Shown here one piece after another: positions 451-15,623 of a DNA stretch of 50,910 bases. This DNA is from a virus (lineage: Duplodnaviria > Caudoviricetes). Each line of letters begins with the position of its first letter. Positions within the stretch are counted from its first letter, which is position 1. The position numbers and the translations under genes are program-made. Under the pieces are notes generated by a model, which saw only the letters and a program-made list of their open reading frames with translations, was not told the origin of the DNA and did not search any database. Where the stretch lies: IMG/VR virus record IMGVR_UViG_3300020147_000012, positions 1 to 50,910 of that record. One strand, written 5' to 3'.

Positions 451-454
451 TCAC

Positions 455-751: not shown

Positions 752-753
752 AA

Positions 754-2796
754 CTAACCCATCATTTCAGCTTGTAACTGTTCCATCTGGTTTGCGCCGC
801 CTTCACCGCTACGCATACCGCGCATGGTATTGTTGCTCATGTTTCCTTGAGGCAAGGTGCTTACACCACCGTCCATCATCGAAGCCTGAGCACCGTTCTC
901 AGCTTGCGGCTGAGGATTGAGAATATTCTTCGAAATGATCTTGGAAGGATCGTCGCCCATCTTTTCGGCGGTCTGAGCAAGAAGCTCTTCGCGGTCGATG
1001 AGATCTGGGAAGAAGGAAAGATAGACGCGAGCCTTCTCAAGCTGCATGGCCTTTTCTGATTCCTTAGTGTGTTCGTTCTTAGGATTGGCGACCATCATGA
1101 CATCAAGCTCAAGGTTCCTGATGTAGTCAGGACGGATAGCCATGATCTCAATATCCTTGCCGGTTTCAGCCTTGTAGATAGCTGTGCGGGCCTTCAATTC
1201 TTCTTTGGTAGGCATCTCCTCCTTGTTGCGGTAAAATTCGATGATCTTGCCGCCACGCTTGCCGGATGACATCGTGACACCTTTCATCTTGAAAACGTTG
1301 AAAGCCTTGCTGGTTTCCTTAGCAGAACCTTCGCCCATGATCGCTTCAACAACCGGATACTCAGGATCGGTCCAGAATTGGAGGATGTTTTTAGCACGCA
1401 AGAATGACTTGCGCTTGATGGAGTATTTGACCAGACGGCCGAACAAGCCGAGCATAGAGGCAACGCCCTCAGCGGCTACGCGGATTTCCTGAGCCGTAGT
1501 GCGGTCGCCAACACCGGCCACGCCTTGCTGAACGCGGTCGATAGAAGCTTCTTCCATGATCTTTCTCGTGTATTCGAGAATGTACTGGTGCCAGCCTGAC
1601 GGCGTTCCAAGGTCGAGTTTCATGTAAGCCTGGTTGATCGGCAGACCCTGAGTATCGACAGGAGTCCTGCGTCCAGGTCGGAGATAGTCGTCTTCGATTG
1701 AATCAAAGCCGTTGGTAAGCATCGGCGGGAAGATCGTCAAGAACGACTGGTCCAAAAGCATGTTGGTCAGCACGTTCAAAACGTCCTGCATCGTCTTCAG
1801 CTTGTCAGGGAGCGACTTGCCGTAGAAGAAGCCAGGCTCAATTATTTCAAAACGGCAATCGAAGAAAGGAAGATCCTTGTGCTCGAATGGCAGGGGAGAG
1901 ATCTTCATGCCAGCCGAAGTGATGACTGGATTCAGCCAGACACCGTTAGCGATAATGACGTACTCATCAGTATCCTTGTTGTAGTAACGGATGATCTCAA
2001 CTTCGCCTTCGGCAACGCCAGGGGAGATGTAATCGAGATACCACGGACGCTGTTCTTTCTCCCCAGGAGTAAAGAAGGGCTGGACCAGCGTCGAGCGTTC
2101 GAAGGAAGCAAACTGTTCCAAGAACTTCTGGTATGGCTGCGTTTGCCTCCAGAAGCAGTACGGCATGTCAGCGATCTTGCGGATGCCGACGGAAGAAGGG
2201 TAGAAGTCTTCAAGCTTGACCAGATCAGCATAGAGCTTATTGCACTTATAACTGCGGTCGCGGACCGTGACTTCGCCGTTGATCGAAACAACGTCGCGGT
2301 ACAGCTGCTCTTTCTTTTCATGACCCTCATAGCCAATAGCCGTTCCTTTGACTATCGCTTCGAGCAGGTAGTTGATAAGGAACTCCTCGTATTCAGCGAC
2401 CTCTTCTGAGTATTCATAGAGGTTCGTAATGATCTGGCCCTTGCGGATGTCTTCGTCGCCGCGGCCGACAAATTCAGCGATAGGCAAGACTTGGACAACC
2501 TTCCCAAGAACAGCCATGACCTTGTTGCGGGTGAACGGATCGTGGATGCGAGCTTGCCAGTCTTCAATGTCTTCACGGACATCGGTGTTAGTAGTAGTGC
2601 GATGTACCGAATCCTGGATGTAGTCGATCAGGTTCAGGCCGTCGAAATTTGCAAAGTTTCGATTGCGGTCTTCCGCTGAGTTAGTGAACTTGCGGAATAC
2701 TGCCTTGATTACTTCCTGCTCTTCTTCAGAAGGTATTACATTTGAAAAAACAACGCCCCCTTCTTTGAGGAGGGGGACGTTCTTTGTATCAGCCAT
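754..2796 (-). CDS. Portal protein (P22/podovirus-like)
   Basis: 680 aa, downstream of the terminase. It has portal-like motifs (GTAIG, FYGKSLPDKL..QD.LN...N, TAQEI) and a Q/M/G-rich C-terminal tail. Confidence 0.85.
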   Translation of the reverse strand: MADTKNVPLLKEGGVVFSNVIPSEEEQEVIKAVFRKFTNSAEDRNRNFANFDGLNLIDYIQDSVHRTTTNTDVREDIEDWQARIHDPFTRNKVMAVLGKVVQVLPIAEFVGRGDEDIRKGQIITNLYEYSEEVAEYEEFLINYLLEAIVKGTAIGYEGHEKKEQLYRDVVSINGEVTVRDRSYKCNKLYADLVKLEDFYPSSVGIRKIADMPYCFWRQTQPYQKFLEQFASFERSTLVQPFFTPGEKEQRPWYLDYISPGVAEGEVEIIRYYNKDTDEYVIIANGVWLNPVITSAGMKISPLPFEHKDLPFFDCRFEIIEPGFFYGKSLPDKLKTMQDVLNVLTNMLLDQSFLTIFPPMLTNGFDSIEDDYLRPGRRTPVDTQGLPINQAYMKLDLGTPSGWHQYILEYTRKIMEEASIDRVQQGVAGVGDRTTAQEIRVAAEGVASMLGLFGRLVKYSIKRKSFLRAKNILQFWTDPEYPVVEAIMGEGSAKETSKAFNVFKMKGVTMSSGKRGGKIIEFYRNKEEMPTKEELKARTAIYKAETGKDIEIMAIRPDYIRNLELDVMMVANPKNEHTKESEKAMQLEKARVYLSFFPDLIDREELLAQTAEKMGDDPSKIISKNILNPQPQAENGAQASMMDGGVSTLPQGNMSNNTMRGMRSGEGGANQMEQLQAEMMG

Positions 2797-2828
2797 TACG
2801 GACGTTAGGGAGTTAAAACTTAGTTATA

Positions 2829-2839
2829 ATTATACCACA
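2829..2839 (-). promoter_or_regulatory. Extended -10 promoter (TGTGGTATAAT) for the portal operon
   Basis: Exact motif 33 nt upstream of the portal ATG. Confidence 0.75.
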
Positions 2840-2860
2840 TATTAGATACAAAAGCAAGAG

Positions 2861-3241
2861 CTATTTGACCCTAATCTGCTTGTAAGCGTCAACGGAATTT
2901 TTATTGAACTCCTTGTTGTTTTTGAGCATGTAAACTCGCTTCTTAAGAGTCTCCAGGGACTCCCAATAGCCTTCGACAAAGTTCTTGACCTTACGCGTTA
3001 ATTCGAACTGGTCCTCATATTCCTCGTAATAACGCTGGCTGATTAGCCTGATGTCCTTCTCTTCGATATCGTAGCCATGCTCAGGCATCTCTTTATAGAC
3101 CTCATGCACGTAGGCTTCTGGCCCGCCGCCGGTCCAATAGATCCGGTAGAAACCGTATTTGATCTTGAAAAACTTAAGGTGCGGAGAAATCTTCTTAGCC
3201 TCCCGCACGAGCCGTCTAAACCAATATGATCCTTCTGTCAT
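2861..3241 (-). CDS. Hypothetical protein
   Basis: 126 aa ORF between terminase and portal, starting 1 nt after the terminase stop. Confidence 0.75.
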   Translation of the reverse strand: MTEGSYWFRRLVREAKKISPHLKFFKIKYGFYRIYWTGGGPEAYVHEVYKEMPEHGYDIEEKDIRLISQRYYEEYEDQFELTRKVKNFVEGYWESLETLKKRVYMLKNNKEFNKNSVDAYKQIRVK

Positions 3242-3242
3242 C

Positions 3243-4883
3243 TTAATAACCTGTTACTCTGCCTTTGCGCTTGACCGTCGTGACGTTCTTGCGCTTGAAC
3301 TTGTCATAAGGAATCGCACGCCTGGCCGTGCCGTTTTCCAACCCAAGTGCCAGGTATTCCAAAGCCGAGCGATAGTGAGAGGTGTAGTCGTGCTTTGGCT
3401 TGTCAGACCTGACCTCTTCAAGACCGTGGCTTTTAACGCGAGGATAAGCGGCATTGATAAGGCAGAGGTCAAAATACTTAGTGCGGGGATTCTCATTGAG
3501 AAGTATCCCGTCCATAAGCAAGCGTTTGGTTGCGCTCTTGCGGACCTTAAATTCTTTCCAAGCCTCATTGAAGTTGATGATGATGCCGTGGTTCTTAAGC
3601 ACGTCCATTACAGATTCGTCTGACACCTGGTTCTGGAAGCGACCCGCAGGGTCGCCAAAATGTGTACCACGTTTCCAATACTTGTGGCTTTCGATTATTT
3701 CAAGTTCGTCTTTCGTATAGATATAGCCGTCACTCGGCACGATGCCGGTAACGAATGGGATGTAGAAGTCGATGTTCTTGCCGGTGTTCCGGTACACGTC
3801 GATGATCCTGAGCTTGCCGGTTCGATCCGGCTGCGCCCAGATGATGCCGGTGTCGTCGGTCTTGCCGAAGTCCCAGCCAACATAAAGCGGCATGTCAGCA
3901 TCATAAGGGAACCAGCCCTCAGTGACGTTGGCCTCATTCCATTCAGGGTAAACACGGCCCTCCTTGGACTTGCTGTAAGAGATGTCGAGTTCCTGGGCCA
4001 CTTCTTCTTCGGTGCGGCGAGCACACTCATAGTCGTACCAGAACTGATCTTTCAGCGGATGCTCCTTCCAATGGAGAGTCATCACGTCGATGCCCGAATC
4101 CCGAAGCATGGCGAAGTAGTTATAGCCATCAGGCGTAGAGTTGGCGATGCGGCAAGAGGTTGAGTCGCCGCAAGCTTCCCACGCATCTTTGGCGTAGTCC
4201 CAGAAACCCAACTCGTCGAAAAGGATAGCAGTCTTACGAGAACCGCGGCCGAAGGACGGGTTCATCGTGTCACCGGCAATAAGGTTGTTATTGGCTGGGT
4301 TAACCAGCTTAAGCTTAGTCCTGTGCTTGTCAGGATTGTACTTGGCAGGTAAAAGCCACTTCGGCAAATTATTGAGAGCGTAGTCGATCTTGCCAAACAG
4401 GGAGTCGTCGGTACGGTCGTCAACCAGCTTTTCCTTGTAGGAACCAACCAGGATGTTGACGCCATCGCGGAAGAGCCAGTACCAAATAGGAACCCAAACG
4501 AACACGAGCCACGAGATACCCATGTCTCGGGACTTCTCAAACAGGCCGTCGCGTGAACCGTCGATGTGCTCAATCAGCCACTTGATAGCCCGCTCCTGAT
4601 AGCCGAAGGTTATGAAAGGGAGATGGTGCGGGGCGTGCTCAGGACGCGGGTCGAAAGTCCAGGCAAAGTTATTGATGAAAAACAAACAGCCCTCAATAGG
4701 ATTGTCGGGTCGCTGGCACAAGTACCAGATATAGGAGCGAGCCTCCAAGCTACGGTTGGCGGCATCGTTCATCTGCAAACGCTGAATTAGCTTCTCCTGG
4801 TAATCAGGGGAGCGTAGATAGTCTTCGAATTGCTTCTTTCGACGTTCAGCTTCCAGCCGTTGCTGCTCTGCGGTAATTCCCAT
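3243..4883 (-). CDS. terL: Terminase large subunit
   Basis: Walker A variant KSRDMGISW, Walker B ILFDE, coupling motif NSTPDG, nuclease domain GWDFG..D..G, and C-terminal HDYTSHYRSALEY. Confidence 0.92.
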   Translation of the reverse strand: MGITAEQQRLEAERRKKQFEDYLRSPDYQEKLIQRLQMNDAANRSLEARSYIWYLCQRPDNPIEGCLFFINNFAWTFDPRPEHAPHHLPFITFGYQERAIKWLIEHIDGSRDGLFEKSRDMGISWLVFVWVPIWYWLFRDGVNILVGSYKEKLVDDRTDDSLFGKIDYALNNLPKWLLPAKYNPDKHRTKLKLVNPANNNLIAGDTMNPSFGRGSRKTAILFDELGFWDYAKDAWEACGDSTSCRIANSTPDGYNYFAMLRDSGIDVMTLHWKEHPLKDQFWYDYECARRTEEEVAQELDISYSKSKEGRVYPEWNEANVTEGWFPYDADMPLYVGWDFGKTDDTGIIWAQPDRTGKLRIIDVYRNTGKNIDFYIPFVTGIVPSDGYIYTKDELEIIESHKYWKRGTHFGDPAGRFQNQVSDESVMDVLKNHGIIINFNEAWKEFKVRKSATKRLLMDGILLNENPRTKYFDLCLINAAYPRVKSHGLEEVRSDKPKHDYTSHYRSALEYLALGLENGTARRAIPYDKFKRKNVTTVKRKGRVTGY

Positions 4884-4897
4884 CGTGACGGTAAAAT

Positions 4898-4971
4898 TGG
4901 TAGCGGGTCCATGATTCGAACATGGTCCTTCAGGTTATGAGCCTAACGAGGTGCCATTCCTCCAACCCGCC
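4898..4971 (-). tRNA. tRNA-Met (CAT), initiator-like body
   Basis: Acceptor GGCGGGT/ACCCGCT, anticodon loop CTCATAA, T loop TTCGAAT, encoded CCA. Confidence 0.9.
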
Positions 4972-4977
4972 AATAAT

Positions 4978-4988
4978 ATTATACCACA
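4978..4988 (-). promoter_or_regulatory. Extended -10 promoter for tRNA-Met/terL
   Basis: TGTGGTATAAT 6 nt upstream of the tRNA 5' end. Confidence 0.75.
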
Positions 4989-5045
4989 TTTTGTAATATA
5001 TTACAAGAGCTTGACATAACTCATGAATATAGCCATACTGATTTC

Positions 5046-5420
5046 ATGAAGAAATTTATCGTCACGTTGGCCTTGGCTGGTGTCATAGCTGTGCCGGTTG
5101 CGTCACATGCACAGACTCCATCGCAAGATCAGATTAGACAGCTTCAACAGCAGGTTGCTTTACTCGTAACTTTACTCAATAAGTTAATGGCTGCTCAAAA
5201 CGGAAACGTTCAGGCGACCACAACAACTACGGTAACTGTCAAATCCCAACCGACCGCTCCTGAGGACGAAGAACAGACAACTATCGAGATCAAGACAGAG
5301 GAAGCAAAGCCCGTCGTGATCGAAAAGGCCCCAGAACAAATCCGAAGGGAAGAGGCTCAAGCGTACCACGACAGAACTGGTCAGTGGCCAAAGGGTTGGA
5401 GCGGAGGTGTCCAGCCATAA
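5046..5420 (+). CDS. Secreted/surface protein with signal peptide (moron-like, opposite strand)
   Basis: Signal peptide MKKFIVTLALAGVIAVPVASHA, then a QIRQLQQQVALL coiled coil. It has its own promoter (TTGACA at 5011, CATACT at ~5034) and would be nearly leaderless. Confidence 0.8.
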   Translation: MKKFIVTLALAGVIAVPVASHAQTPSQDQIRQLQQQVALLVTLLNKLMAAQNGNVQATTTTTVTVKSQPTAPEDEEQTTIEIKTEEAKPVVIEKAPEQIRREEAQAYHDRTGQWPKGWSGGVQP

Positions 5421-5422
5421 TG

Positions 5423-5494
5423 TTCCAGGTCATGGGTTCGAACCACAATTAACAGATCCAAAGTCTGTTGTCCTACCGATTAGACGAACCTGGA
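5423..5494 (-). tRNA. tRNA-Gln (TTG)
   Basis: Acceptor TCCAGGT/ACCTGGA, anticodon arm ACAGA-CTTTGGA-TCTGT, T loop TTCGAAC. Confidence 0.9.
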
Positions 5495-5496
5495 AT

Positions 5497-5527
5497 AAGA
5501 AAGCCCCCAAGAGGGGGCTTTTTGTTT
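5497..5527. terminator. Bidirectional intrinsic terminator
   Basis: AAAGCCCCC-AAGA-GGGGGCTTT flanked by A and T runs. Confidence 0.75.
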
Positions 5528-5612
5528 ACTGGCAGCTATCGCACTGAGTACCCTCAGCAGGATCGCATACGCCCTCAACATTGCCCTCCTCTCGTGGTTC
5601 AATATCGCTCAT
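5526..5612 (-). CDS. 28-aa Cys-rich peptide ending CDPAEGTQCDSCQ
   Basis: Manual translation MSDIEPREEGNVEGVCDPAEGTQCDSCQ*, located between tRNA-Asn and the terminator. It is below the ORF-track cutoff. Confidence 0.65.
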   Translation of the reverse strand: MSDIEPREEGNVEGVCDPAEGTQCDSCQ

Positions 5613-5635
5613 GCTTTGAAAATTACCTGATAAGG

Positions 5636-5708
5636 CTGGCACGGCTGGATTCGAACCAGCGACCTATCCGTTAACAGCGGATTGCTACTACCACTGAGCT
5701 ACATGCCA
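5636..5708 (-). tRNA. tRNA-Asn (GTT)
   Basis: Acceptor TGGCATG/CGTGCCA, anticodon arm TCCG-CTGTTAA-CGGA, T loop TTCGAAT. Confidence 0.92.
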
Positions 5709-5767
5709 TTGTTTACTTATGTCTCGAAGATGTTAAGATGAGCTTAAGGTTCTTCGAGAGGGAATCG

Positions 5768-5792
5768 GGGATAGCAGCTTCGGCTGCTATTT
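5768..5792. terminator. Hairpin/terminator after the putative small terminase
   Basis: ATAGCAGC-TTCG-GCTGCTAT followed by TTC. Confidence 0.55.
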
Positions 5793-6365
5793 CTATTTCG
5801 TCCGCTCTTTGTCCACCTGGACTTTCTCACGCATGGTCATCAGAGCCTCAAAAGCGGCCTCTGGTGTCATCTCCTTGTCGATCTTGGCATGGACCGCAAT
5901 ATGCTCCGTAGCTTCGCCCTTGAGGATCTGAGCCTTGTCAAAAGCCACGCCAGCGATCACGGCCAAGTCTTTGAACGTAACCTGGTCAAGTTTCTTCTTG
6001 GACTTGCCGACACGATCAAGCTTCATGTCGATAAGCCTGAACGATTTGTCGCGGATCGAAAGGACGACGTTCTTGATGTCGCCGTCGCCTTCGCGGCGTT
6101 CAGCCACGCTGGCCCCTTCGGCTACAATCGTAGGCTTGTTGATGCGCTGATTCATAGAATCGCACACCATCTTCACAACGTCAGGAGAGACACCGTACTG
6201 CTCGGGGTTGTTCTTAACCGCAGCGTAGATCTTATAGACGGCAGTTCGGATTGATCGGGGATTGCTGTAAACCTTGTCGAAACCGTAATCTATGCCGACT
6301 TGCAGCATTGGCTTAAGGGAGAGTGCCTTAAAGATTTCGACTTGTTTCTCGGGACCGAATTTCAT
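5793..6365 (-). CDS. Putative terminase small subunit
   Basis: 190 aa, upstream of terL. The C-terminal DLAVIAGVAFDKAQILKGEATEHI resembles TerS-type helices. A TGTAGTATAAT promoter at 6373..6383 would give a leaderless mRNA. Confidence 0.6.
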   Translation of the reverse strand: MKFGPEKQVEIFKALSLKPMLQVGIDYGFDKVYSNPRSIRTAVYKIYAAVKNNPEQYGVSPDVVKMVCDSMNQRINKPTIVAEGASVAERREGDGDIKNVVLSIRDKSFRLIDMKLDRVGKSKKKLDQVTFKDLAVIAGVAFDKAQILKGEATEHIAVHAKIDKEMTPEAAFEALMTMREKVQVDKERTK

Positions 6366-6468
6366 TTACAACATTATACTACAGATTTAAGAAAAAATCA
6401 ATAGCAAAAAGACCCCAAAAGGGGTTGTTATACAAGGACAAAAAGGCCATCTTCATAAACAGAGAGAC

Positions 6469-6782
6469 TTATCCACAGGTTCTCCCTTTTTAGATGCCAA
6501 TTTTTCACTCTTCCACCAAACCAAGTATGGTATACTCATGAAGAGGTCAGGCACGCAAAAAACGTCCTAATCTTCCCATTCAGAGGCGGCCACAGAACCC
6601 CCTAGGTGAACACATCTTTGCAAGATGTACAGCCGAAGCGGACCGGCTATTAAGTCACTGGTATCTGTTCTCTGATGGGAAGGTTCGGGCGTTTATTGCT
6701 TTTGTTCCATCCACAGCTGATATGATTAGTATATCTTTTGTACATGTTTTGTACAACAAACGCTATATCGCTCTGTGGATAA
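6469..6782. promoter_or_regulatory. Two perfect DnaA boxes in inverted orientation
   Basis: TTATCCACA at 6469..6477 and TGTGGATAA at 6774..6782 in a non-coding region. Confidence 0.55.
6543..6706 (+). ncRNA. Putative ~160-nt structured RNA (long rod with branched head)
   Basis: Promoter TATGGTATACT at 6526..6536. Segment 6555..6585 pairs with 6670..6699, with G-U pairs on the + strand. Two inner hairpins and a 3' U-tract. Confidence 0.65.
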
Positions 6783-6815
6783 CCTCAACAGGTTTAAAAG
6801 GTGCAAATGAACTGA

Positions 6816-6891
6816 TGGGGCCGCTGGAAAGACTTGAACTCTCAACCCACGCTTTACAAAAGCGTCGCTCTACCAATTGAGCTACAGCGGC
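6816..6891 (-). tRNA. tRNA-Thr (TGT)
   Basis: Acceptor GCCGCTG/CAGCGGC, anticodon arm ACGCT-TTTGTAA-AGCGT, T loop TTCAAGT, encoded CCA. Confidence 0.93.
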
Positions 6892-7112
6892 ATCATCAAC
6901 TCACGTTTCATTTCGCGGTAGTCACGTCTGGAAATAATCTCTCGGCCGATTGCGCCGCCATATTCCCAGCCACTGACTTTCTTACCGTTCAACCGCTTAC
7001 TCCTCACAAGTCTATATGCCTTCTTCTTATGTTTTCGTTTCCAGTTCATTGCACCGTAGTACGACATAGTAGGCTGGCTAGTCCCAGGTGACGGGAGGCC
7101 CATTGTTTGCAT
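6882..7112 (-). CDS. Small basic hypothetical protein within the tRNA operon (start may be at ~7067)
   Basis: K/R-rich ORF on the tRNA strand; its stop overlaps the tRNA-Thr 5' end. Confidence 0.45.
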   Translation of the reverse strand: MQTMGLPSPGTSQPTMSYYGAMNWKRKHKKKAYRLVRSKRLNGKKVSGWEYGGAIGREIISRRDYREMKRELMMPL

Positions 7113-7217
7113 CGTACTGCCTTAGAGATTGACTGATAGACCCAGGTATTAACGGCATCTAGAATCCTCCCTGGGATTATCAACCAACCTCATTGCGTCC
7201 ACTTTCTCCCACTACAG

Positions 7218-7290
7218 CCAGTAGCATTGGAATCGAACCAACCCAGCAAGTTTTGGAGACTCGCTCGCCAGCCTTGGGACATGGCTACTG
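7218..7290 (-). tRNA. tRNA-Trp (CCA), atypical D arm
   Basis: Acceptor CAGTAGC/GCTACTG, anticodon arm GCGAGT-CTCCAAA-ACTTGC, T arm GTTGG-TTCGATT-CCAAT. Confidence 0.75.
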
Positions 7291-7293
7291 AAT

Positions 7294-7511
7294 AGGTGAT
7301 GGCAAGGATTTGCCGAGTTCTAATTTCTGACCTTCTTTCATGTCGTGGTATTTCAACCTCGGGTACTCGTAGTAGTCACCTTGCGGTCATAGCCAGGTTA
7401 ACGGCGGCTTACCAGTATGCGTAACCTATCTTACGAAGTTGGAACTTCCAACGTATCAGCTACACAGTAACCAGTGCTCGACGGGCAGACCTATACTGCC
7501 ATACATCACCT
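7294..7511 (-). ncRNA. tRNA-framed ~217-nt RNA with large insertions
   Basis: Acceptor-like GGTGATG/CATCACC, D-like hairpin GGCAG/CTGCC, T-like stem GCAAGG/CCTTGC whose loop is split by a 64-nt insert. Confidence 0.6.
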
Positions 7512-7512
7512 C

Positions 7513-7557
7513 TGACGGCCTTCAACTTGAGTTGAACGGGGATTGCTCCCGCCGTCA
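7513..7557 (-). ncRNA. 45-nt three-way-junction RNA element
   Basis: TGACGGC/GCCGTCA closes GGGA-GCAA-TCCC and TTCAAC-TCAA-GTTGAA. Confidence 0.55.
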
Positions 7558-7560
7558 TTA

Positions 7561-7618
7561 TGTCCGAGAGGGGACTTGAACCCCCGACGCAAGGCTCTAC
7601 CAACTGAGCTACTCAGAC
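7561..7618 (-). ncRNA. tRNA-like RNA lacking the anticodon arm
   Basis: GTCTGAG-TA-GCTC-AGTTGGTA-GAGC-CTTGCGTC-GGGGG-TTCAAGT-CCCCT-CTCGGAC-A. Confidence 0.8.
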
Positions 7619-7688
7619 AATCCTCCCCAGTCCTGTGGTCTGATCCACCGCTCCATATCAGAAGGAAGACTCCCAGGGATTACTAAGT

Positions 7689-7758
7689 ATTATACCACAA
7701 ACTGCATCACTTTTCAACAGTCTCCTGTGTTGTAATTGGGGACAAATTATGGTATAAT
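7689..7758. promoter_or_regulatory. Divergent extended -10 promoter pair driving the RNA cluster
   Basis: TGTGGTATAAT on the minus strand (7689..7699) and TATGGTATAAT on the plus strand (7748..7758). Confidence 0.75.
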
Positions 7759-7764
7759 AGGTGA

Positions 7765-8288
7765 GTTAGGAAAACAAAATACTGGGGGCTAGGAAGGCTA
7801 AGGCAAGAGTGCCTACCCCTGGATGCCACGAACTACTTGCCAGGTGTCTTACGCTGTGAACTGGGAAATGACACCATCGCTATTACCGCTTGCTACGAGA
7901 CTTCACACGGTAACAGGATTACTCTCCAAGGGCTTGAGATGGAGGAGAAGAAGTGAGGACAGGACAATCAGAGAAACAACTGAGCCAATTGTCCGGTAGA
8001 AACTTAACCTTCGTACAGGCTAGGTATCCACAACTGTACCTGAAAAATAAGGACAGAATGTGGAAAGGTACACCTGACCAAGCGAAGCGCGGGCAGCAAG
8101 GCTTTAGCCTTGTGAATCTATACCCAAGTCACCAATGTATCTAAACAGAAGCGAAAAAGGAATCGGGGATAGATTACAGTCTCTAGGCCATACAACCTAC
8201 CAAGAAACAAGAATCTGTGGCGCAGGACACATGATTACGGTAAAACATTACGCAAAAGCACCACCAGCCCCCACTAGGGGGTTTTCTT
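7765..8288 (+). ncRNA. Putative large (~520 nt) structured ncRNA
   Basis: Own promoter and terminator, paired ends, at least 8 helices, 2 candidate pseudoknots, and no credible ORF. Confidence 0.7.
8268..8288 (+). terminator. Intrinsic terminator
   Basis: CCCCC-ACTA-GGGGG followed by TTTTCTT. Confidence 0.65.
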
Positions 8289-8426
8289 ATACCCATTGGC
8301 CTAAAACGTAATACAGGAATAATAAAAATGGTGCAAAATTTTGGATGGGCATATGATTAGAATGGGCGCAGCGTTGGCCCGTGTCCCACCCCCTCGCAGG
8401 AATAAGGCTTTTTTAGGATTGTCTGT

Positions 8427-8454
8427 ATGTCTCACAACAGGTATTGTACGACAC
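8427..8454. other. dif-like 11-6-11 recombination site
   Basis: ATGTCTCACAA-CAGGTA-TTGTACGACAC, with imperfect inverted arms around a 6-bp spacer. Confidence 0.45.
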
Positions 8455-8860
8455 TAAACTAATATATGGCTATAAATAAGGGGTTTTTAGTGTTTGGGTG
8501 TGTCGCAAAAGCAAACAAATAATGGTATATATCCCTTTTTGTACGACTGTGTGCGGTGCGATGCAGCTACCTTAGCCCCATCCACACACTAAGTAGGCGG
8601 TTCCATTCACACCATGTGGTAAATAACCCTTACTTTTTATAGTGCATACCATCGCTAATATGAGGCTCTATATAAGGCTAGATAACCTCACGCACAAACG
8701 GCCCTATATGTACTTGCTATCCATTGGGCATTATTTGACATACTGGCTTATTCTGTACTGTAATGTTGTACTACGCTTGACTTCCTTTGCCCTTATAGCT
8801 TATAGTAGCAAGTATTAAGGGAATAGGTCGTTTTATAAACAATTAATTGATACCAACTAT

Positions 8861-8971
8861 ATGCCAACTATCGCACACCGCATATACTACGTATTCATTG
8901 GGCTGATCCTCGGATTGCTTGCCTCACATGAATTGGTAGTTATGCCGATGCTTGAAGCCCTTACTAAGTAA
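8861..8971 (+). CDS. Small membrane peptide (36 aa)
   Basis: Manual translation MPTIAHRIYYVFIGLILGLLASHELVVMPMLEALTK; first gene of the early arm. Confidence 0.55.
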   Translation: MPTIAHRIYYVFIGLILGLLASHELVVMPMLEALTK

Positions 8972-8978
8972 TAAGAAT

Positions 8979-9158
8979 ATGTTAATGAAGTTCTACGTTA
9001 AGCAGGTCTACGGTAAGCCTAGAAACTACCTGGTAGACCCGAAGCAAGCCGAAGCCTTTACCAAACTAACAGGCAGAGCGACCCTTTCAGCCGATGACTT
9101 CCGCATCCTAGAGGTATTTGGAGTCAAATTTGAACAGGTCAACGAGCCTATTAAATAA
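8979..9158 (+). CDS. Hypothetical early protein
   Basis: ATG at 8979 (MLMKFYVKQVYGK...), tightly packed with its neighbours. Confidence 0.7.
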   Translation: MLMKFYVKQVYGKPRNYLVDPKQAEAFTKLTGRATLSADDFRILEVFGVKFEQVNEPIK

Positions 9159-9160
9159 TA

Positions 9161-9301
9161 ATGATCTTAAAGCAATATTATTCTATTGATGGTGGTGTCA
9201 ATAATCTATGTATCTATACGGTATGTAATGAGCGATACCAAACCATTAGCACACACAAGACCGAGAAAGCAGCAATGAGAGCATTAAAGCTAATTAAATA
9301 G
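9161..9301 (+). CDS. Hypothetical protein (46 aa)
   Basis: Manual translation MILKQYYSIDGG...AAMRALKLIK; fills the gap between neighbouring genes. Confidence 0.55.
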   Translation: MILKQYYSIDGGVNNLCIYTVCNERYQTISTHKTEKAAMRALKLIK

Positions 9302-9304
9302 CAT

Positions 9305-9397
9305 ATGAGGTACTTAATCCTACTAATAAGCCTTATAGCCATCACACAGTTAAGTAATCCATTGATGGGAGCTAGATTTGTTTTGTTAGATAAATAA
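9305..9397 (+). CDS. Small hydrophobic peptide (30 aa)
   Basis: MRYLILLISLIAITQLSNPLMGARFVLLDK; 2-3 nt gaps to its neighbours. Confidence 0.45.
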   Translation: MRYLILLISLIAITQLSNPLMGARFVLLDK

Positions 9398-9399
9398 AC

Positions 9400-9510
9400 A
9401 TGACTAATAAGCCAATATCCAAAGAGGCACAAGACATATTGAGGCCAGAATGGGAGAAAATGCAGGACTTCATAAAAGAAACAGATCAAGAGATATGCGG
9501 GACTGAGTAG
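9400..9510 (+). CDS. Hypothetical protein (36 aa)
   Basis: MTNKPISKEAQDILRPEWEKMQDFIKETDQEICGTE; tight packing. Confidence 0.5.
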   Translation: MTNKPISKEAQDILRPEWEKMQDFIKETDQEICGTE

Positions 9511-9695
9511 AGTATTGTTTATCCTTAGTGTGGCTTGGTTCGACCGTTGCGTAAAGCAATGGTAGCAGGGCGAAGCCATGCGATAGGGCAAGCAATTAGG
9601 CGAACCCTCCGCTAACAGCTTGCGATCGTAACTTATGCTAGTTATGGTAGCGAAGCGAGTTAGTTGGTGGTCATTGAAAACTAAATATAACGATT

Positions 9696-9941
9696 ATGAC
9701 CAAACACAAGACCATCCAGCGTAAAAGCTGGACTAAAAAGGATATTGCAGCCGTACTTGATCTATGGGAAACCAAAACAAAGGCTGAAATAGCCGAGCAG
9801 TTGGACGTTAAAATGTGGCAATTAACCTATTTGATTAAGGAAATAGAGAAAGCTGGCTATAAGATCCCTAAAAAGAAACAGCATCACCAGACGCAAATTC
9901 TCATAAAGGAAGTATTAAAAGCCCGCAAGCTAATCAAATAG
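9696..9941 (+). CDS. Small HTH-like DNA-binding protein
   Basis: WTKKDI..VLDLW...TKAEIAEQLDV pattern; basic. Confidence 0.65.
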   Translation: MTKHKTIQRKSWTKKDIAAVLDLWETKTKAEIAEQLDVKMWQLTYLIKEIEKAGYKIPKKKQHHQTQILIKEVLKARKLIK

Positions 9942-9945
9942 AGCC

Positions 9946-10380
9946 ATGACCAAAGAAGACTATTCTATCCTTGTTAGCTGCATTGAGTTAGCTAAACGAG
10001 ATGACGGAACTGAGTTCTACCGCGTCAAAGATGGCACACCGGACCATGTTGCTAAAATAGTGTCTGATGTCGTCTTTAAAGCGGACGAAGATATACATAG
10101 CTGGGATTTGTCTTATGAGATTGCTAACGATGCGCTTAATGCCTTGTACGATGTCGAACTGGATAATTTATCTGAGTTTGATATCTATGAGCAAGACAGT
10201 GAGCACGCTAGCATCTGGACAGCTGCCCGCCTTGAATATCTGACCATGTGGAACCAGGACGAAATAGCGGACAAAGTTAGAGATTATGACTGTGATATCG
10301 CTACGGCAGCAGCTATGTGGTATGAAGAGCAGGTTAATTACATGGTCGAAGCCTTTAAGAGCGCAATTCTTGAAGCCTAA
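9946..10380 (+). CDS. Ocr-like acidic protein (putative DNA mimic/anti-restriction)
   Basis: About 34 D/E versus about 11 K/R in 144 aa (hand count), helical, early position; the motif spacing recalls T7 gp0.3. Confidence 0.55.
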   Translation: MTKEDYSILVSCIELAKRDDGTEFYRVKDGTPDHVAKIVSDVVFKADEDIHSWDLSYEIANDALNALYDVELDNLSEFDIYEQDSEHASIWTAARLEYLTMWNQDEIADKVRDYDCDIATAAAMWYEEQVNYMVEAFKSAILEA

Positions 10381-10382
10381 CC

Positions 10383-10598
10383 ATGAACCACGACCTAAAA
10401 ATTAAGTCATTACATGACGCAATGCTCGAATGCTCTTGCGGTTGGAGCCTTATCTATACCGGCGCAATGACAAAAGCGGAGGCCAAGAGAGAACATGACC
10501 GCCACCGCTATCAGGAATTTTGCACCGAATGGAGGAAGGCCCATTCCATCAGCAAACCGCCAAGCTTTACCAGTTGGAAGTCTGACCATAAAGCCTAA
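10383..10598 (+). CDS. Hypothetical protein with CxCG...H motif
   Basis: 71 aa ORF in the early operon. Confidence 0.65.
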   Translation: MNHDLKIKSLHDAMLECSCGWSLIYTGAMTKAEAKREHDRHRYQEFCTEWRKAHSISKPPSFTSWKSDHKA

Positions 10599-10610
10599 GA
10601 CTAACTAGCC

Positions 10611-10799
10611 ATGAAAACTATATATCTTGCAGGGTCTTATAAGCTTGTTTTGGAAGATAACGAGGGCAAAACATTTACTTTCCTAGATATCAAGTTATCA
10701 TCTAAACAGGCTAGGGAAGTGTTTAAATCTAAGATGTTTGCTGGTGTACAAATACGAGAATTAAGTTATAATGGCGATACATGGACTACAGCAAGCTAA
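10611..10799 (+). CDS. Hypothetical protein
   Basis: 62 aa ORF in the early operon. Confidence 0.6.
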   Translation: MKTIYLAGSYKLVLEDNEGKTFTFLDIKLSSKQAREVFKSKMFAGVQIRELSYNGDTWTTAS

Positions 10800-10954
10800 C
10801 CCTTGGAGAGCTAATCAGCCACAGTAACGAAACGATCCGGCGCAATGCTATGTCTATTCTTAAGCAGTTGCAAAAGATCGAATACGACAAGGGTATCGAC
10901 GAAGCCAAAGCCGCCTACGACAAAGAAATCGAAGAATTGAAAAAAGGTAAATAA
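10781..10954 (+). CDS. Hypothetical protein (57 aa)
   Basis: Manual translation MDYSKLTLGELISHSNETIRRNAMSILKQLQK...; followed by a terminator. Confidence 0.6.
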   Translation: MDYSKLTLGELISHSNETIRRNAMSILKQLQKIEYDKGIDEAKAAYDKEIEELKKGK

Positions 10955-10997
10955 TCGCTTTTCTACCCCTTGAGGCCCTAAAAACCCTTGAGGCATC

Positions 10998-11039
10998 AAA
11001 AAGCCACCTAAATACTAGCTATAGGTGGTTTTTTGTTTT
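10998..11039 (+). terminator. Intrinsic terminator ending the first early operon
   Basis: AAAAGCCACCTA...TAGGTGGTTTTTTGTTTT; a second hairpin with U-tract follows at ~11079..11102. Confidence 0.7.
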
Positions 11040-11264
11040 CCCGAGAAAGGGGAAAGTGACCATTTAGTAGCCTACGCAGAACCCCGACGAGGGGGCTTTT
11101 TTATATCTGACGCAGAGTTCCGAGAGCGTAAATCTTCATGTAGCCTTCATGTAAACTCAGGTATTATTGTTTTGTTCTATTGCCAAAATTGGCCTTTCGT
11201 GGTATATAGTAATCTTGGGATCTGATATCCTCTTTGGGGCAATTGTGCTATAATATTTTACGAC

Positions 11265-11507
11265 ATGTTCATAGTAGAAAAAATCAAAGATTACCACGCC
11301 CGTATGGCCGTTGAATACACTGAGATGGTAGAGAAGATCGGTGAAAAGCTGGCGGAGGACCGCAAGCACCTCTATTTTGTATTGGATCAGCACGGTAAGC
11401 CGGTCAAAAATGGCTATGTAGCCCATAAGGGCCATGCCAAGTTCTATGGCCGTACTAAAAAGTACGCTTTGGAACAAGCTCAGTCGTTTACGTACAAAGG
11501 GTTATAA
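11265..11507 (+). CDS. Hypothetical protein
   Basis: 80 aa with its own TGTGCTATAAT promoter at 11244..11254. Confidence 0.7.
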   Translation: MFIVEKIKDYHARMAVEYTEMVEKIGEKLAEDRKHLYFVLDQHGKPVKNGYVAHKGHAKFYGRTKKYALEQAQSFTYKGL

Positions 11508-11649
11508 AGCCCGTGAAACATAAGGGGTTTTTAAGTATGCCATTGACAGTGGCATATTTTTGTTCTGTAACTATTACAAAGCTCTACTTATCCCCAGAAA
11601 ATGAAGAAACAGTGAATGAAAAAAGTTGAGAAATGTGGTATAATAAGTG

Positions 11650-11980
11650 AAGTAAGGGTTCCACAAAGGTAGGAATTAAAGCCAAACCGCGTTTCTCCTC
11701 AACTTCTAATATCATTTGGGATACGGGAAAACATACATACTCCTTACACAGCTAATCTGCTCCTAAACAATTAACGCAATCATATACCACGGCAACCTAT
11801 ATATTTCGTCTAGAAAAAAATGGCCGTTCAAGGTAGCGCGTTAAGTAGGGCAGATTGGGGGATCTAATCCTTACATCTCTGGTGTACATGTGCGTATGTG
11901 TCCAGGTCATTACAAGGTGGGCCAGTCGCTCCTTGGAGCCACGCCACAAATATACTTAAACATTGGCTGCAAACCATACG
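11650..11980 (+). ncRNA. Putative structured RNA region
   Basis: Promoter at 11634..11644. Stems GTAAGG/CCTTAC, CTAATCTGC.CCTA/TAGGGCAGATTGG and TTAACGC/GCGTTAA. No credible ORF. Confidence 0.5.
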
Positions 11981-11982
11981 CA

Positions 11983-12029
11983 TGGGAGTGCGTAGGGCTT
12001 CGATAATGGTGCAAATCCATTACTCCCAA
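11983..12029 (+). ncRNA. tRNA minihelix-like element (acceptor stem and T arm only)
   Basis: TGGGAGT-[15 nt]-AATGG-TGCAAAT-CCATT-ACTCCCA-A. Confidence 0.55.
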
Positions 12030-12158
12030 AGGTATTTATTAGACCACAAGTCTTCATGTCGCAAAAAGTTACGACTTTGCGAGTAAATGCCGCAGGAAAA
12101 CGATTTAAATGCTTAGTATCAAAGGGCTTTATATATAAACCTTTATTTAAAAGATGCT

Positions 12159-12186
12159 ATGTCGTAAAATCTATGTCCTGCGAACT
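12159..12186 (-). other. Second dif-like site
   Basis: Minus strand reads AGTTCGCAGGA-CATAGA-TTTTACGACAT. The left arm resembles XerC arms; the right arm matches the site at 8427. Confidence 0.4.
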
Positions 12187-12371
12187 TCATGAAGACTATT
12201 AAGCCGCATATTTCAACGATATGTCAACGGACACCATCCGTCACAGGGGCAAGGGGTATGAGTACGATCTGGAAGGGAAAATAAACTCTCCAGAGGATCG
12301 TATTCGGACCATATTGCTCGACGAAAAAGGCCGTTATGTTTCGAGCGGGATAGCGGTGGTAACGCATCGCT

Positions 12372-12701: not shown

Positions 12702-12787
12702 GACACCACTTTTGTCCCCGTTAGGAATCATCAAATCTTCATTTTTCAGTTAAACAGTTTCACGTTATCAATTAACGCTTCTTAAAT

Positions 12788-13081: not shown

Positions 13082-13169
13082 ACTTGCTCGGCTTAAGGAG
13101 AAGAAAAATCTGATCCTTATTGCCCTTAGCCTTCTTGTATTAGTAGCTCATTTTGGCCTGGGAATCTGA
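13071..13169 (+). CDS. Small membrane peptide (32 aa)
   Basis: MENKLARLKEKKNLILIALSLLVLVAHFGLGI; TGATG coupling to the next gene. Confidence 0.55.
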   Translation: MENKLARLKEKKNLILIALSLLVLVAHFGLGI

Positions 13170-15219: not shown

Positions 15220-15220
15220 T

Positions 15221-15617: not shown

Positions 15618-15623
15618 AGAGAT

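What the first reader, a model, noticed from the sequence alone, without database searches (positions are those of the whole stretch)
6526..8288. A dedicated ~1.8-kb non-coding RNA island driven by divergent promoters
Seen: back-to-back promoters at 7689 (-) and 7748 (+). Leftward, nearly abutting, come a hairpin (7620..7681), an anticodon-less tRNA, a 45-nt three-way junction, a 217-nt tRNA-framed RNA, tRNA-Trp, a long hairpin, a small ORF and tRNA-Thr. Rightward is a single ~520-nt structured RNA, and a third promoter at 6526 drives a ~160-nt RNA. Known: large phage ncRNAs such as GOLLD and ROOL sit among tRNA genes, and tRNA-like folds are released by RNase P/RNase Z. Inference: this is a polycistronic RNA system in which tRNA-like ends punctuate and release several novel RNAs. 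It is the best candidate for an undescribed system in this window.
Basis: partly seen in the sequence, partly recalled or inferred. Interest (0 to 1): 0.88.

Follow-up and report, generated by a model that had tools for sequence, protein, structure and literature searches.

The report
Shrunken phage tRNA array with passenger RNAs
A soil phage has a 2.4-kb stretch without protein genes where two back-to-back promoters drive a reduced tRNA gene cluster padded with tRNA-shaped non-tRNA pieces on one side and an orphan 520-base non-coding transcript on the other; the layout is real, but whether the new RNAs do anything is unproven.

Summary
The window is a complete 50.9-kb phage genome. The motif TGGTATAHT occurs 16 times against 0.75 expected, and two copies sit back to back at 7689(-) and 7750(+).

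Leftward lie:
- a 58-nt tRNA-like RNA without an anticodon arm
- a 45-nt three-way junction
- a 216-nt RNA with paired ends
- tRNA-Trp
- two hairpins
- a doubtful 61-aa ORF
- tRNA-Thr

Rightward is a ~520-nt promoter-to-terminator unit with no coding signal.

Phages with 57-73% identical terminases carry tRNA arrays of up to 23 genes in front of the terminase gene. Some arrays also hold a tmRNA, a 58-nt tmRNA tRNA-like domain, or a reduced RNase P RNA. tRNA-Trp, the junction and one hairpin each have a homologue in a different relative's array. The junction and hairpin show compensatory changes, but from only two distinct sequences each.

The leftward half is therefore a shrunken tRNA array with non-tRNA passengers, not a separate new system. 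The 216-nt, ~520-nt and ~170-nt RNAs are orphans. They have no Rfam match, no homologue in any collection searched, and only moderate folding scores. No transcription data exist. This is a real, moderately interesting variant.

The parts
7689..7717 (-). Leftward promoter (-35 TTGAAA, 17-nt spacer, TG-extended -10)
   Evidence: 11/12, TG. The motif is enriched 16 against 0.75 expected. Context is shown.
7730..7758 (+). Rightward promoter (-35 TTGTAA, 17-nt spacer, TG-extended -10)
7619..7683 (-). 5' leader of the leftward transcript; the proposed hairpin is not significant
   Evidence: z +0.70, 151 of 200 shuffles fold as well.
7561..7618 (-). 58-nt tRNA-like RNA. Acceptor stem, D arm and T arm are intact; the anticodon arm is replaced by about 4 nt.
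   Evidence: Rfam tRNA 43.4 bits, full model span 1-71 with 18 positions deleted. The D-arm stretch is 95% identical to that of tRNA-Thr (D3).
7513..7557 (-). 45-nt three-way junction: a 7-bp closing stem, a 4-bp hairpin with a GNRA loop, and a 6-bp hairpin
   Evidence: z -3.61. A homologue sits in an array slot of L009, with identical copies in L010 and L044. 13 modelled pairs: 10 unchanged, 3 compensatory, 0 broken. The covariance model finds only these two lineages in 712,723 bases.
7295..7510 (-). 216-nt RNA with a 7-bp closing stem, a D-arm-like hairpin and a 3' hairpin abutting the closing stem; an orphan
   Evidence: No Rfam match. No nhmmer match in any locus.
7217..7290 (-). tRNA-Trp (CCA) with an unusual D arm
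   Evidence: ARAGORN. About 53 of 57 core bases are identical to the tRNA-Trp of L002.
7122..7195 (-). Long hairpin (14 + 6 pairs)
   Evidence: z -3.75, 0 of 200. No homologue found.
7047..7126 (-). Conserved hairpin with a near-invariant 45-nt apical part; shared with L067, where it follows tRNA-Cys
   Evidence: nhmmer E 5.4e-14. 20 pairs: 5 compensatory, 2 changed on one side, 0 broken. A 1-nt indel breaks the longer 76-aa frame.
6885..7067 (-). 61-aa lysine/arginine-rich ORF, doubtful; its stop codon lies inside tRNA-Thr
   Evidence: Codon score 0.154, intermediate. Only itself found among 5.8 billion proteins. No significant likeness to the ORF at the same place in L067.
6816..6891 (-). 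tRNA-Thr (UGU)
   Evidence: 67.9 bits.
6412..6425 (-). Terminator-like hairpin, the likely end of the leftward transcript
6528..6715 (+). Weak promoter (TGGTATACT, no -35) followed by a ~170-nt long branched hairpin with a U-rich tail; antisense to the tail of the leftward transcript
   Evidence: z -3.93. The + strand is favoured by 9.4 kcal/mol.
7765..8290 (+). ~520-nt non-coding transcription unit ending at a terminator-like site (8266-8283); its two ends are complementary; an orphan
   Evidence: z -3.57; I2. Its ORFs score -0.38, -0.22 and -0.27, like non-coding sequence. No Rfam match. No DNA or protein homologue. A 33.5%, T 19.2% on the + strand.

Best explanation
The island is the promoter-proximal end of a tRNA gene array that this phage lineage keeps in front of its terminase genes. 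Here only tRNA-Trp and tRNA-Thr remain in the island, with Asn, Gln and Met further down.

The other array slots are filled by RNAs with paired ends:
- a tRNA that has lost its anticodon arm
- a 45-nt three-way junction
- a 216-nt RNA with an acceptor-like closing stem
- two hairpins

A consensus host-type promoter at 7689(-) would transcribe all of this as one precursor of about 1.27 kb, ending at the terminator at 6412-6425. Host RNase P and the 3'-end tRNA-processing enzymes would cut it at the tRNA and tRNA-like ends. That would release two working tRNAs and several small passenger RNAs.

The twin promoter at 7750(+) makes a separate non-coding RNA of about 520 nt, which ends at an intrinsic terminator just before the conserved early promoter/operator region.

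Shown: the promoter motif and its enrichment; the tRNA and tRNA-like identities; the homology of three elements to array pieces in relatives; the lack of coding signal.

Inferred: transcription, processing, and any function of the passengers. My best guess is that the passengers serve as processing punctuation or by-products, and that the 520-nt RNA is a stand-alone RNA of unknown role.
For: Promoters. TGGTATAHT occurs 16 times against 0.75 expected, with a shared -35 and TG context, and 12 of 16 copies stand directly before ORFs. The same motif occurs in 49 of 76 loci and stands in front of arrays in relatives, for example L067 at 155 before the array and L061 at 8363 before tRNA-Tyr.

Array context. 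Of 72 related loci fetched with the terminase, 12 carry 3 or more tRNA genes in front of the terminase by ARAGORN. These include duplicates: L006 equals L041, and L009 overlaps L010 and L044. Arrays reach 23 tRNAs.

Non-tRNA passengers in relatives.
- A tmRNA in L002, 79.7 bits.
- A 58-nt tmRNA tRNA-like domain in L067, 52.7 bits, above gathering 47.
- Reduced RNase P class A RNAs in L013 and L007, 85.1 and 76.2 bits, full model span, with both conserved core stretches that form P4 (by my recollection of the RNase P literature) retained.

Homology of island pieces.
- tRNA-Trp to L002.
- The three-way junction to L009, where it fills exactly the slot between tRNA-Lys and tRNA-Gly, with 3 compensatory pairs and none broken.
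- The hairpin at 7047-7126 to L067, with 5 compensatory pairs and none broken.

Packing. Elements are 2-5 nt apart, as in arrays.

Non-coding nature. The source's gene caller left the ORFs in 7765-8290 uncalled, since not even a self-hit came back.

Positional analogue. L009 has a promoter (2321-2329, -) and a terminator (1948-1930) bounding about 390 nt without long ORFs, directly before the same conserved early element. z -3.51.
Against: - No RNA data. Transcription and processing are inferred only.
- Covariation rests on two distinct sequences per element. The shuffle control reaches the observed values in 56 of 500 shuffles (junction) and 11 of 500 (hairpin), which is close to the floor such a test can give.
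- The 216-nt RNA, the long hairpin, the ~170-nt RNA and the ~520-nt RNA have no homologue anywhere searched, so nothing shows they are under selection.
- The island's folding scores are only modestly below the coding baseline (p 0.043).
- The first 200 nt of the 520-nt unit fold worse than shuffles (z +1.7).
- The - strand of the 520-nt stretch folds better than the + strand.
- The 3' hairpin of the 216-nt RNA lacks a T-loop, so recognition by RNase P is not assured.
- The 61-aa ORF has an intermediate codon score (0.154), so part of the leftward transcript may be an mRNA.
- L009's positional analogue shares no detectable sequence with the window's RNA.
Confidence: 0.55

Rival explanations
1. 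Decay debris. The non-tRNA segments are non-functional remains or filler left as an ancestral large tRNA array eroded. The anticodon-less tRNA is a dead gene made by a hairpin-excising deletion. The 520-nt unit is the wreck of one or more small genes that is still transcribed.
For: - Relatives have far larger arrays at the same place, so loss has happened.
- The tRNA-like RNA looks like a tRNA with one clean deletion and resembles the phage's own tRNA-Thr.
- Most segments are orphans.
- The 520-nt stretch holds three overlapping ORFs in alternating frames and has the A-rich, T-poor make-up of + strand coding DNA in this genome.
- Folding scores are only modest.
Against: - No tRNA remnants are detectable in the spacers at E up to 10.
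- Two small elements are kept in distant relatives with compensatory changes.
- The tRNA-like RNA keeps every stem outside the deletion intact.
- Armless tRNA-like minis recur in two other arrays (L067; L013 by my reading).
- The 520-nt unit keeps a consensus promoter and a good terminator.
- No protein homologue of any frame was found.
Confidence: 0.25
2. The rightward 520-nt transcript is not a stand-alone RNA. It is a long cis-acting leader of the early operon, and its terminator works as a regulated stop (attenuation or antitermination) before the early promoters and operators.
For: - It ends about 20 nt before the conserved early promoter/operator block at 8302-8515.
- Its 5' end can pair with the 5' arm of the terminator hairpin (24 nt, 75% complementary), giving an alternative to the terminator hairpin (I2).
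- L009 has a promoter-terminator unit at the same place.
Against: - The early region has its own promoters further on: 8523 and 8777-8806, plus the conserved one near 8365. No read-through is therefore needed.
- Most relatives that share the early element have no such unit in front of it: L012, L014, L016 and L020.
- 520 nt is long for a leader in a genome whose other promoters sit 10-94 nt before start codons.
Confidence: 0.15
3. The island encodes small proteins: the 61-aa basic ORF at 6885-7067(-), and perhaps a 39-aa ORF at 7837-7956(+). The RNA structures are then their translational controls.
For: - The genome uses no Shine-Dalgarno sequences, so a missing one is no argument against translation.
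- The 61-aa ORF scores 0.154, above about 95% of off-frame windows, and was called as a gene in the source record.
- Its ATG sits at the foot of the conserved hairpin, and indels after it in the alignment with L067 are multiples of three.
- 40-codon windows over 7816-7953 reach 0.26.
Against: - The two basic ORFs in the window and in L067 are not alike as proteins (E 2.4).
- No homologue exists among 5.8 billion proteins.
- The stop codon lies inside tRNA-Thr, so cutting by RNase P would leave the message without a stop.
- The 39-aa frame has only a TTG start, and its whole-ORF score is 0.09.
- The three longer ORFs in 7765-8290 score like non-coding sequence.
Confidence: 0.08

Closest known systems
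Phage tRNA gene arrays, here those of the related contigs L002, L007, L009, L013, L037 and L067
   Same: Same place (in front of the terminase gene), same strand as the terminase, same promoter motif, tight packing, a homologous tRNA-Trp, and shared passenger elements.
   Different: Only 2 tRNAs remain in the island and 5 in all, against 11-23 in the relatives. Most of the transcript is non-tRNA. A divergent promoter adds a 520-nt non-coding unit that the relatives lack, apart from a positional analogue in L009.
Stable non-tRNA RNAs of the phage T4 tRNA cluster (species 1 and 2; recalled from textbooks, no paper retrieved; the search found nothing relevant)
   Same: Small stable RNAs of unknown function, co-transcribed with phage tRNAs and released by tRNA-processing enzymes.
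   Different: No sequence relation was tested or expected. Processing is shown for T4 and is only inferred here.
tmRNA tRNA-like domain (Rfam RF00023)
   Same: A tRNA-shaped RNA without an anticodon arm. A 58-nt example sits in the array of relative L067.
   Different: The window's 58-nt RNA has a true D stem, C3:G70 instead of G3:U70, and no encoded CCA (read). It scores as a tRNA, not as a tmRNA.
GOLLD and ROOL large RNAs (Rfam models; bioRxiv 10.1101/2024.12.08.627333, only the search listing with the start of its abstract seen; that they occur in phages near tRNA genes is recalled)
   Same: A large non-coding RNA in a phage genome beside tRNA genes.
   Different: No match to any Rfam model at E up to 10. 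No family exists, so no conserved architecture can be compared.
Theta (HDV-like) ribozymes next to phage tRNAs (PMC10879173; abstract start and four passages seen)
   Same: A small structured RNA abutting the 3' side of a phage tRNA or tRNA-like gene, proposed there to process the 3' trailer.
   Different: Those ribozymes have a nested double-pseudoknot fold. The pairs supported here form a plain nested three-way junction, and no ribozyme family matches.
tRNA-like punctuation (mitochondrial tRNA punctuation, mascRNA release from MALAT1; recalled)
   Same: RNase P and RNase Z cut at tRNA-like folds to release neighbouring RNAs.
   Different: Not shown here. The only Rfam mascRNA match is 14.1 bits over 15 nt, which is noise.

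Membership tests
tRNA (RF00005), for 7561-7618 | Acceptor stem, D arm and T arm with conserved loop bases | tested here: met
   43.4 bits against gathering 29, model span 1-71. The fold shows a 7-bp acceptor stem, a 4-bp D stem and a 5-bp T stem.
tRNA (RF00005), for 7561-7618 | Anticodon stem-loop | tested here: not met
   18 model positions are replaced by 4 nt in the cmscan alignment. ARAGORN does not call it.
tmRNA tRNA-like domain (RF00023), for 7561-7618 | G3:U70 pair, no D stem, A73-CCA end (features recalled) | tested here: not met
   The sequence read shows C3:G70, a regular D stem and no CCA. A lower-scoring match from the same clan was dropped by cmscan.
tmRNA (whole), for 7295-7510 | tRNA-like domain with T-loop, plus a tag reading frame | tested here: not met
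   ARAGORN finds no tmRNA in the window. No Rfam tmRNA match at E up to 10. The 3' hairpin has a 4-nt loop.
Bacterial RNase P RNA (RF00010, RF00011) | Match to the covariance model, including the two conserved core stretches that form P4 | tested here: not met
   No match in window 4500-9500 at E up to 10, nor in the sub-stretches. The same model finds the relatives L013 and L007 at E 8e-25 and 8e-22.
GOLLD / ROOL / other large Rfam RNAs | Match to the family covariance model | tested here: not met
   The best hits in 7740-8320 score 13.6-18.3 bits against unrelated families.
HDV-like (theta) ribozyme, for the 45-nt junction | Nested double pseudoknot (PMC10879173, Introduction passage) | tested here: not met
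   All 13 supported pairs are nested in a three-way junction with junction strands of 0-2 nt. No Rfam ribozyme match.
Hammerhead ribozyme | CUGANGA ... GAAA core in the junction (motif recalled) | tested here: not met
   The regex scan of 6400-8300 on both strands found no instance.
Phage tRNA array with passenger RNAs (the kind I file it under) | Homology and synteny with tRNA arrays of related phages | tested here: met
Phage tRNA array with passenger RNAs | Co-transcription and processing into discrete RNAs | not testable with these tools
   Only one DNA run, the possible source, holds the sequence, and no RNA run does.
Structured non-coding RNA family, for 7765-8290 | Homologues with covariation | tested here: inconclusive
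   No homologue in GenBank phages, plasmids, IMG/VR word scans or the 77 fetched loci. Covariation therefore cannot be assessed.

The most novel reading that the evidence does not exclude
The island is an RNA-only accessory module. A set of tRNA mimics (the anticodon-less tRNA, the three-way-junction minihelix and the 216-nt tRNA-framed RNA) and a 520-nt RNA would be made in bulk from consensus promoters. They would occupy or mislead host factors that act on tRNAs, such as tRNA-cleaving defence nucleases or processing and charging enzymes. This would be one expression of an undescribed habit of this phage clade of carrying translation-machinery RNAs in its arrays, namely reduced RNase P RNA, tmRNA and tRNA-like-domain-only mini-tmRNA.
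Probability: 0.15. Interest if true: 0.8.

Novelty: new variant of a known kind. Interest (0 to 1): 0.5.

Why it matters
Phage tRNA arrays are usually read as codon-supply or anti-defence devices made of tRNAs alone. In this clade the array slots also hold non-tRNA RNAs. In the window these are a tRNA without an anticodon arm, a conserved three-way junction and a conserved hairpin. In relatives they are a tmRNA, a bare tmRNA tRNA-like domain and a reduced RNase P RNA.

If the passengers are functional, arrays are a general platform for delivering small RNAs that use the host's tRNA-processing enzymes for release. Armless tRNA mimics would then become a new class of phage tool to test against tRNA-targeting defences.

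The 520-nt RNA would be a new large phage RNA only if homologues or expression data turn up. At present it is a well-bounded candidate and no more.

Tried and rejected
Known RNA families.
- Rfam gathering search on the whole window.
- Rfam E-value searches on 4500-9500, 7740-8320 and 7280-7700.
- Nothing came back but tRNAs and noise.

Homologues of the island.
- blastn against GenBank phages matched only tRNA-Thr. Plasmids gave none.
- nhmmer of the island against all fetched loci found only tRNAs, L002 (Trp), L067 (the hairpin) and a weak L009 hit.
- The reverse search of 56 array gaps against the island is.
- tblastn with 66 six-frame peptides from 6400-8900 found nothing in 7765-8290.
- Protein searches with three ORFs gave a self-hit only, or nothing.
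- Pfam and PHROGs on six island ORFs gave no family below E 0.01.

Relatives.
- The terminase fetched 29 IMG/VR loci, 3 genome loci and 40 metagenome loci, none above 73% identity.
- ORF190 and the 144-aa early protein gave none in IMG/VR.

IMG/VR word scans.
- The junction pattern found only L009 and L010 again.
- The hairpin 21-mer found none.
- The early-element pattern found only L016's contig.
- Two words from the 520-nt RNA gave two chance hits with no extended likeness, and none.

Other tests.
- The covariance model of the junction found no further member in 65 sources. L010, L041, L044, L050, L053, L054, L057 and L059 were left out as duplicates of listed loci, and L074-L078 were not included.
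- The 520-nt RNA aligned with L009's positional analogue showed no real likeness.
- An antisense-target search within the genome found nothing beyond 12-14-nt chance matches.
- The hammerhead core search found none.
- The idea that the 216-nt or 520-nt RNA is a diverged RNase P RNA or tmRNA was rejected on Rfam and ARAGORN results.
- The idea that the 45-nt junction is a theta/HDV-like ribozyme was rejected on topology.

Not obtained or not done.
- Sequencing runs: no RNA holder listed. The one DNA run may be the source.
- Supplementary files of papers were not consulted. Motif lists in the supplements of PMC5737381 or PMC10879173 might include these elements.
- Literature: the phrase search for phage-encoded RNase P RNA found 0 papers. 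The search for anticodon-lacking tRNA-like RNAs in phages gave one unrelated paper.


Full report
WHAT THE WINDOW IS

The window is a whole IMG/VR virus record of 50,910 bases, rated 100% complete.
- Genes left of about 6400 run on the minus strand. The large terminase is at 3243-4883, followed by tRNA-Met, tRNA-Gln and tRNA-Asn at 4898-5708 and a 190-aa ORF at 5793-6365.
- Genes right of about 8860 run on the plus strand.
- A codon-usage log-odds track trained on 30 long ORFs finds no coding-like 40-codon window in 6381-6691, 7077-7815 or 7990-8842.
- The finding therefore lies in a 2.4-kb ORF-poor gap at the point where transcription diverges.

PROMOTERS

- The consensus scan lists 7717..7689(-) (11/12 with TG) and 7730..7758(+) (10/12 with TG) among its best sites.
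- Both contain TGGTATAAT. TGGTATAHT occurs 16 times in the window against 0.75 expected, and the largest of 100 shuffles gave 3.
- The copies share a TTG at -35 and a TG just upstream.
- 8 of the 16 stand 10-94 nt before ORFs of 112-680 aa. 4 stand before ORFs of 46-75 aa.
- The other 4 (6528, 7689, 7750, 11636) have nothing coding-like behind them.
- The genome's start codons have no Shine-Dalgarno sequence.
- The copy at 6528 is the weakest, with TATACT and no -35.
- The motif also occurs in 49 of the 76 loci held when one search was run, several times in front of tRNA arrays.

LEFTWARD TRANSCRIPT, ELEMENT BY ELEMENT (minus strand, read)

- 7619-7683, leader. Its hairpin is no better than chance (z +0.70).
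- 7561-7618, tRNA-like RNA. It matches Rfam tRNA over the full model at 43.4 bits, with the 18 positions of the anticodon arm replaced by 4 nt. The acceptor, D and T stems are all intact. Its D-arm stretch is 95% identical to that of the phage's tRNA-Thr.
- 7513-7557, three-way junction. It follows three bases later (z -3.61).
- 7295-7510, 216-nt RNA. It follows two bases later and is closed by a 7-bp stem. A D-arm-like hairpin follows the 5' strand and a short hairpin abuts the 3' strand, but that hairpin's loop has four bases and is not a T-loop. z for 7291-7560 is -2.27.
- 7217-7290, tRNA-Trp. It follows four bases later. It is called by ARAGORN only.
- 7122-7195, a long hairpin (z -3.75).
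- 7047-7126, a second hairpin.
- 6885-7067, a lysine/arginine-rich ORF whose stop codon lies inside tRNA-Thr.
- 6816-6891, tRNA-Thr.
- About 400 nt more, ending at a terminator-like site at 6412-6425.

WHAT RELATIVES SHOW

The terminase fetched 29 IMG/VR loci, 3 genome loci and 40 metagenome loci, 51-73% identical. None is close enough to align non-coding DNA in general.

12 of the 72 loci carry three or more tRNA genes in front of the terminase, on its strand. Some are duplicates. ARAGORN counts per locus are:

| Locus | tRNA genes |
|---|---|
| L002 | 23 |
| L007 | 22 |
| L043 | 23 |
| L009 | 20 |
| L067 | 20 |
| L013 | 14 |
| L037 | 11 |

These arrays also hold non-tRNA RNAs:
- a tmRNA in L002 (79.7 bits)
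- a 58-nt match to the two ends of the tmRNA model in L067 (52.7 bits, above gathering), which has G3:U70 and an ACCA end
- 263-nt and 272-nt full-span matches to bacterial RNase P class A in L013 and L007 (85.1 and 76.2 bits, below gathering 100; E 8e-25 and 8e-22). Both conserved core stretches are kept and several peripheral helices are deleted. L043 differs from L007 at 1 of 276 bases there.

The island is thus the local form of a lineage-wide array.

THREE ISLAND PIECES HAVE HOMOLOGUES, EACH IN A DIFFERENT RELATIVE

1. tRNA-Trp is about 53/57 identical to the tRNA-Trp of L002.
2. The three-way junction recurs in L009, with identical copies in L010 and L044.
   - There it fills the slot between tRNA-Lys and tRNA-Gly.
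   - Of 13 modelled pairs, 10 are unchanged, 3 changed on both sides and none is broken. All slid controls show no compensatory pair except one at +2.
   - A covariance model built from these sequences finds no third lineage in 712,723 bases of related loci. A degenerate word scan of IMG/VR returns only L009 and L010.
3. The hairpin at 7047-7126 matches L067 347-441, directly after tRNA-Cys (E 5.4e-14).
   - Of 20 consensus pairs, 5 changed on both sides, 2 on one side and none is broken.
   - The 45-nt apical part is nearly invariant.
   - A 1-nt indel breaks the 76-aa frame.

With only two distinct sequences each, the shuffle control cannot go far. The observed values are reached in 56/500 and 11/500 shuffles.

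THE SMALL ORF

- From the ATG at 7067 it has 61 codons and an intermediate codon score of 0.154. True genes average 0.364 and off-frame sequence averages -0.428.
- It is the only protein of its kind among 5.8 billion.
- L067 has a basic 42-aa ORF at the same place, but the two are not alike as proteins.
- I regard it as doubtful.

RIGHTWARD UNIT

- From about 7765 to the terminator-like hairpin at 8266-8283 (7 pairs, 5 G-C, U-rich tail) there are about 520 nt.
- Its three ORFs of 58-63 aa score -0.38, -0.22 and -0.27. They have no homologues and were not even called as genes in the source.
- A 39-aa TTG frame scores 0.09.
- The whole unit folds with z -3.57, and the 3' 390 nt with z -3.56. The 5' 200 nt fold worse than shuffles.
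- The opposite strand folds better overall.
- The two ends are complementary over 24 nt, in competition with the terminator hairpin.
- The + strand is A-rich and T-poor (33.5% and 19.2%), like the coding strand of + strand genes. This fits transcription in that direction, or a decayed gene.
- No Rfam family matches, and no DNA homologue was found.
- L009 has a positional analogue. A TGGTATAHT promoter at 2321-2329(-) and a terminator at 1948-1930 bound about 390 nt without long ORFs, directly before the same conserved early promoter/operator block. It shares no detectable sequence with the window's unit.

THIRD UNIT

Behind the weak promoter at 6528(+) lies a ~170-nt branched hairpin with a U-rich tail (z -3.93). 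It is 9.4 kcal/mol more stable on the + strand. It would be antisense to the tail of the leftward transcript. It is an orphan.

HOW STRONG IS THE STRUCTURE SIGNAL OVERALL?

In 200-nt windows over bases 1-17,000, windows outside 4800-8800 have mean z -0.6, sd 1.39 and 5th percentile -3.2. Island windows are lower on the better strand (mean -1.95 against -1.13), but only modestly so (p 0.043).

READING

- The leftward half is a shrunken tRNA array whose slots hold paired-end passenger RNAs.
- Tight packing, closing stems and the presence of RNase P RNA genes in sister arrays make release by RNase P and 3' processing the most likely mechanism. None of this is shown.
- The rightward unit is a well-bounded non-coding transcript of unknown role.
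- The main rival is that the orphans are debris.
- No RNA-seq run holds this sequence, so expression could not be examined.

COMPARISON WITH KNOWN THINGS

- It behaves like phage tRNA clusters with co-transcribed stable RNAs. The T4 species 1 and 2 RNAs are recalled; no paper was retrieved.
- It is not a member of tmRNA, RNase P RNA, GOLLD, ROOL, or the HDV-like or hammerhead families on the tests run.
- I file it as a new variant of a known kind.
- A literature search for the phrase 'phage-encoded RNase P RNA' and two variants found no paper. The relatives' RNase P-like genes may therefore be the most publishable by-product of this work.

Noticed in passing
L013 293-555; L007 1840-2111; L043 4391-4666: Reduced (263-276 nt) bacterial class A RNase P-like RNAs sit inside phage tRNA arrays, between tRNA-Phe and tRNA-Leu. 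They score 85.1 and 76.2 bits, below gathering 100 (E 8e-25 and 8e-22), with full model span and both conserved core stretches kept. L043 is 275/276 identical to L007. A phrase search found no paper on phage-encoded RNase P RNA.
   Followed up: partly
L002 4263-4576: A phage-encoded tmRNA lies within a 23-tRNA array (Rfam 79.7 bits). ARAGORN gives a 21-residue tag.
   Followed up: no
L067 2216-2273; L013 1380-1443: A 58-nt RNA matches only the two ends of the tmRNA model (52.7 bits, above gathering 47). It has G3:U70 and an ACCA end, and sits between two tRNA-Lys genes. It is a tRNA-like domain with no message part. L013 has a 64-nt look-alike at the same place by my reading; Rfam did not flag it at E up to 1.
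   Followed up: partly
window 11636-12160: A second consensus TGGTATAAT promoter is followed by about 500 nt without coding signal. Its ORFs of 38-62 aa score -0.24 to -0.36, z is -2.10, and no terminator was found.
   Followed up: partly
window 6367-6385 and 8752-8770: A 19-nt inverted repeat (17/19 complementary) brackets the whole ORF-poor island. The left copy contains the -10 box of the 190-aa ORF's promoter. It could mark an old compact divergent promoter pair split by insertion of the island.
   Followed up: no
window 8302-8515: A conserved early promoter plus a palindromic operator-like block is shared with L009 (E 3e-5) and, more weakly, with L016, L014, L020 and L012. It is the only non-tRNA part of the intergenic region that is widely conserved.
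   Followed up: partly
whole window: Start codons have no Shine-Dalgarno sequence, and consensus promoters end 10-40 nt before many ATGs. Many messages would therefore have very short leaders, which is a hint about the host's translation style.
   Followed up: no
L009 1925-2316 (-), also L044: A promoter-to-terminator unit of about 390 nt without long ORFs (z -3.51) sits directly before the conserved early element. It is a positional analogue of the window's 520-nt unit with no sequence likeness.
   Followed up: partly
window 5793-6411; L061 8621-9554; L043 2517-3711: The 190-aa ORF next to the island has nucleotide-level homologues that also sit inside tRNA arrays (E 2e-36 and 3e-30). By position it may be the small terminase subunit; no family match was found.
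   Followed up: no
window 27965(+) and 27994(-): Two consensus promoters face each other 20 nt apart, so their transcripts would overlap at the 5' ends.
   Followed up: no
L002 4075-4262: The 188-nt gap before the tmRNA contains a second, diverged copy of the unusual tRNA-Trp-like sequence (E 6e-5 to the window's tRNA-Trp). ARAGORN does not call it.
   Followed up: no
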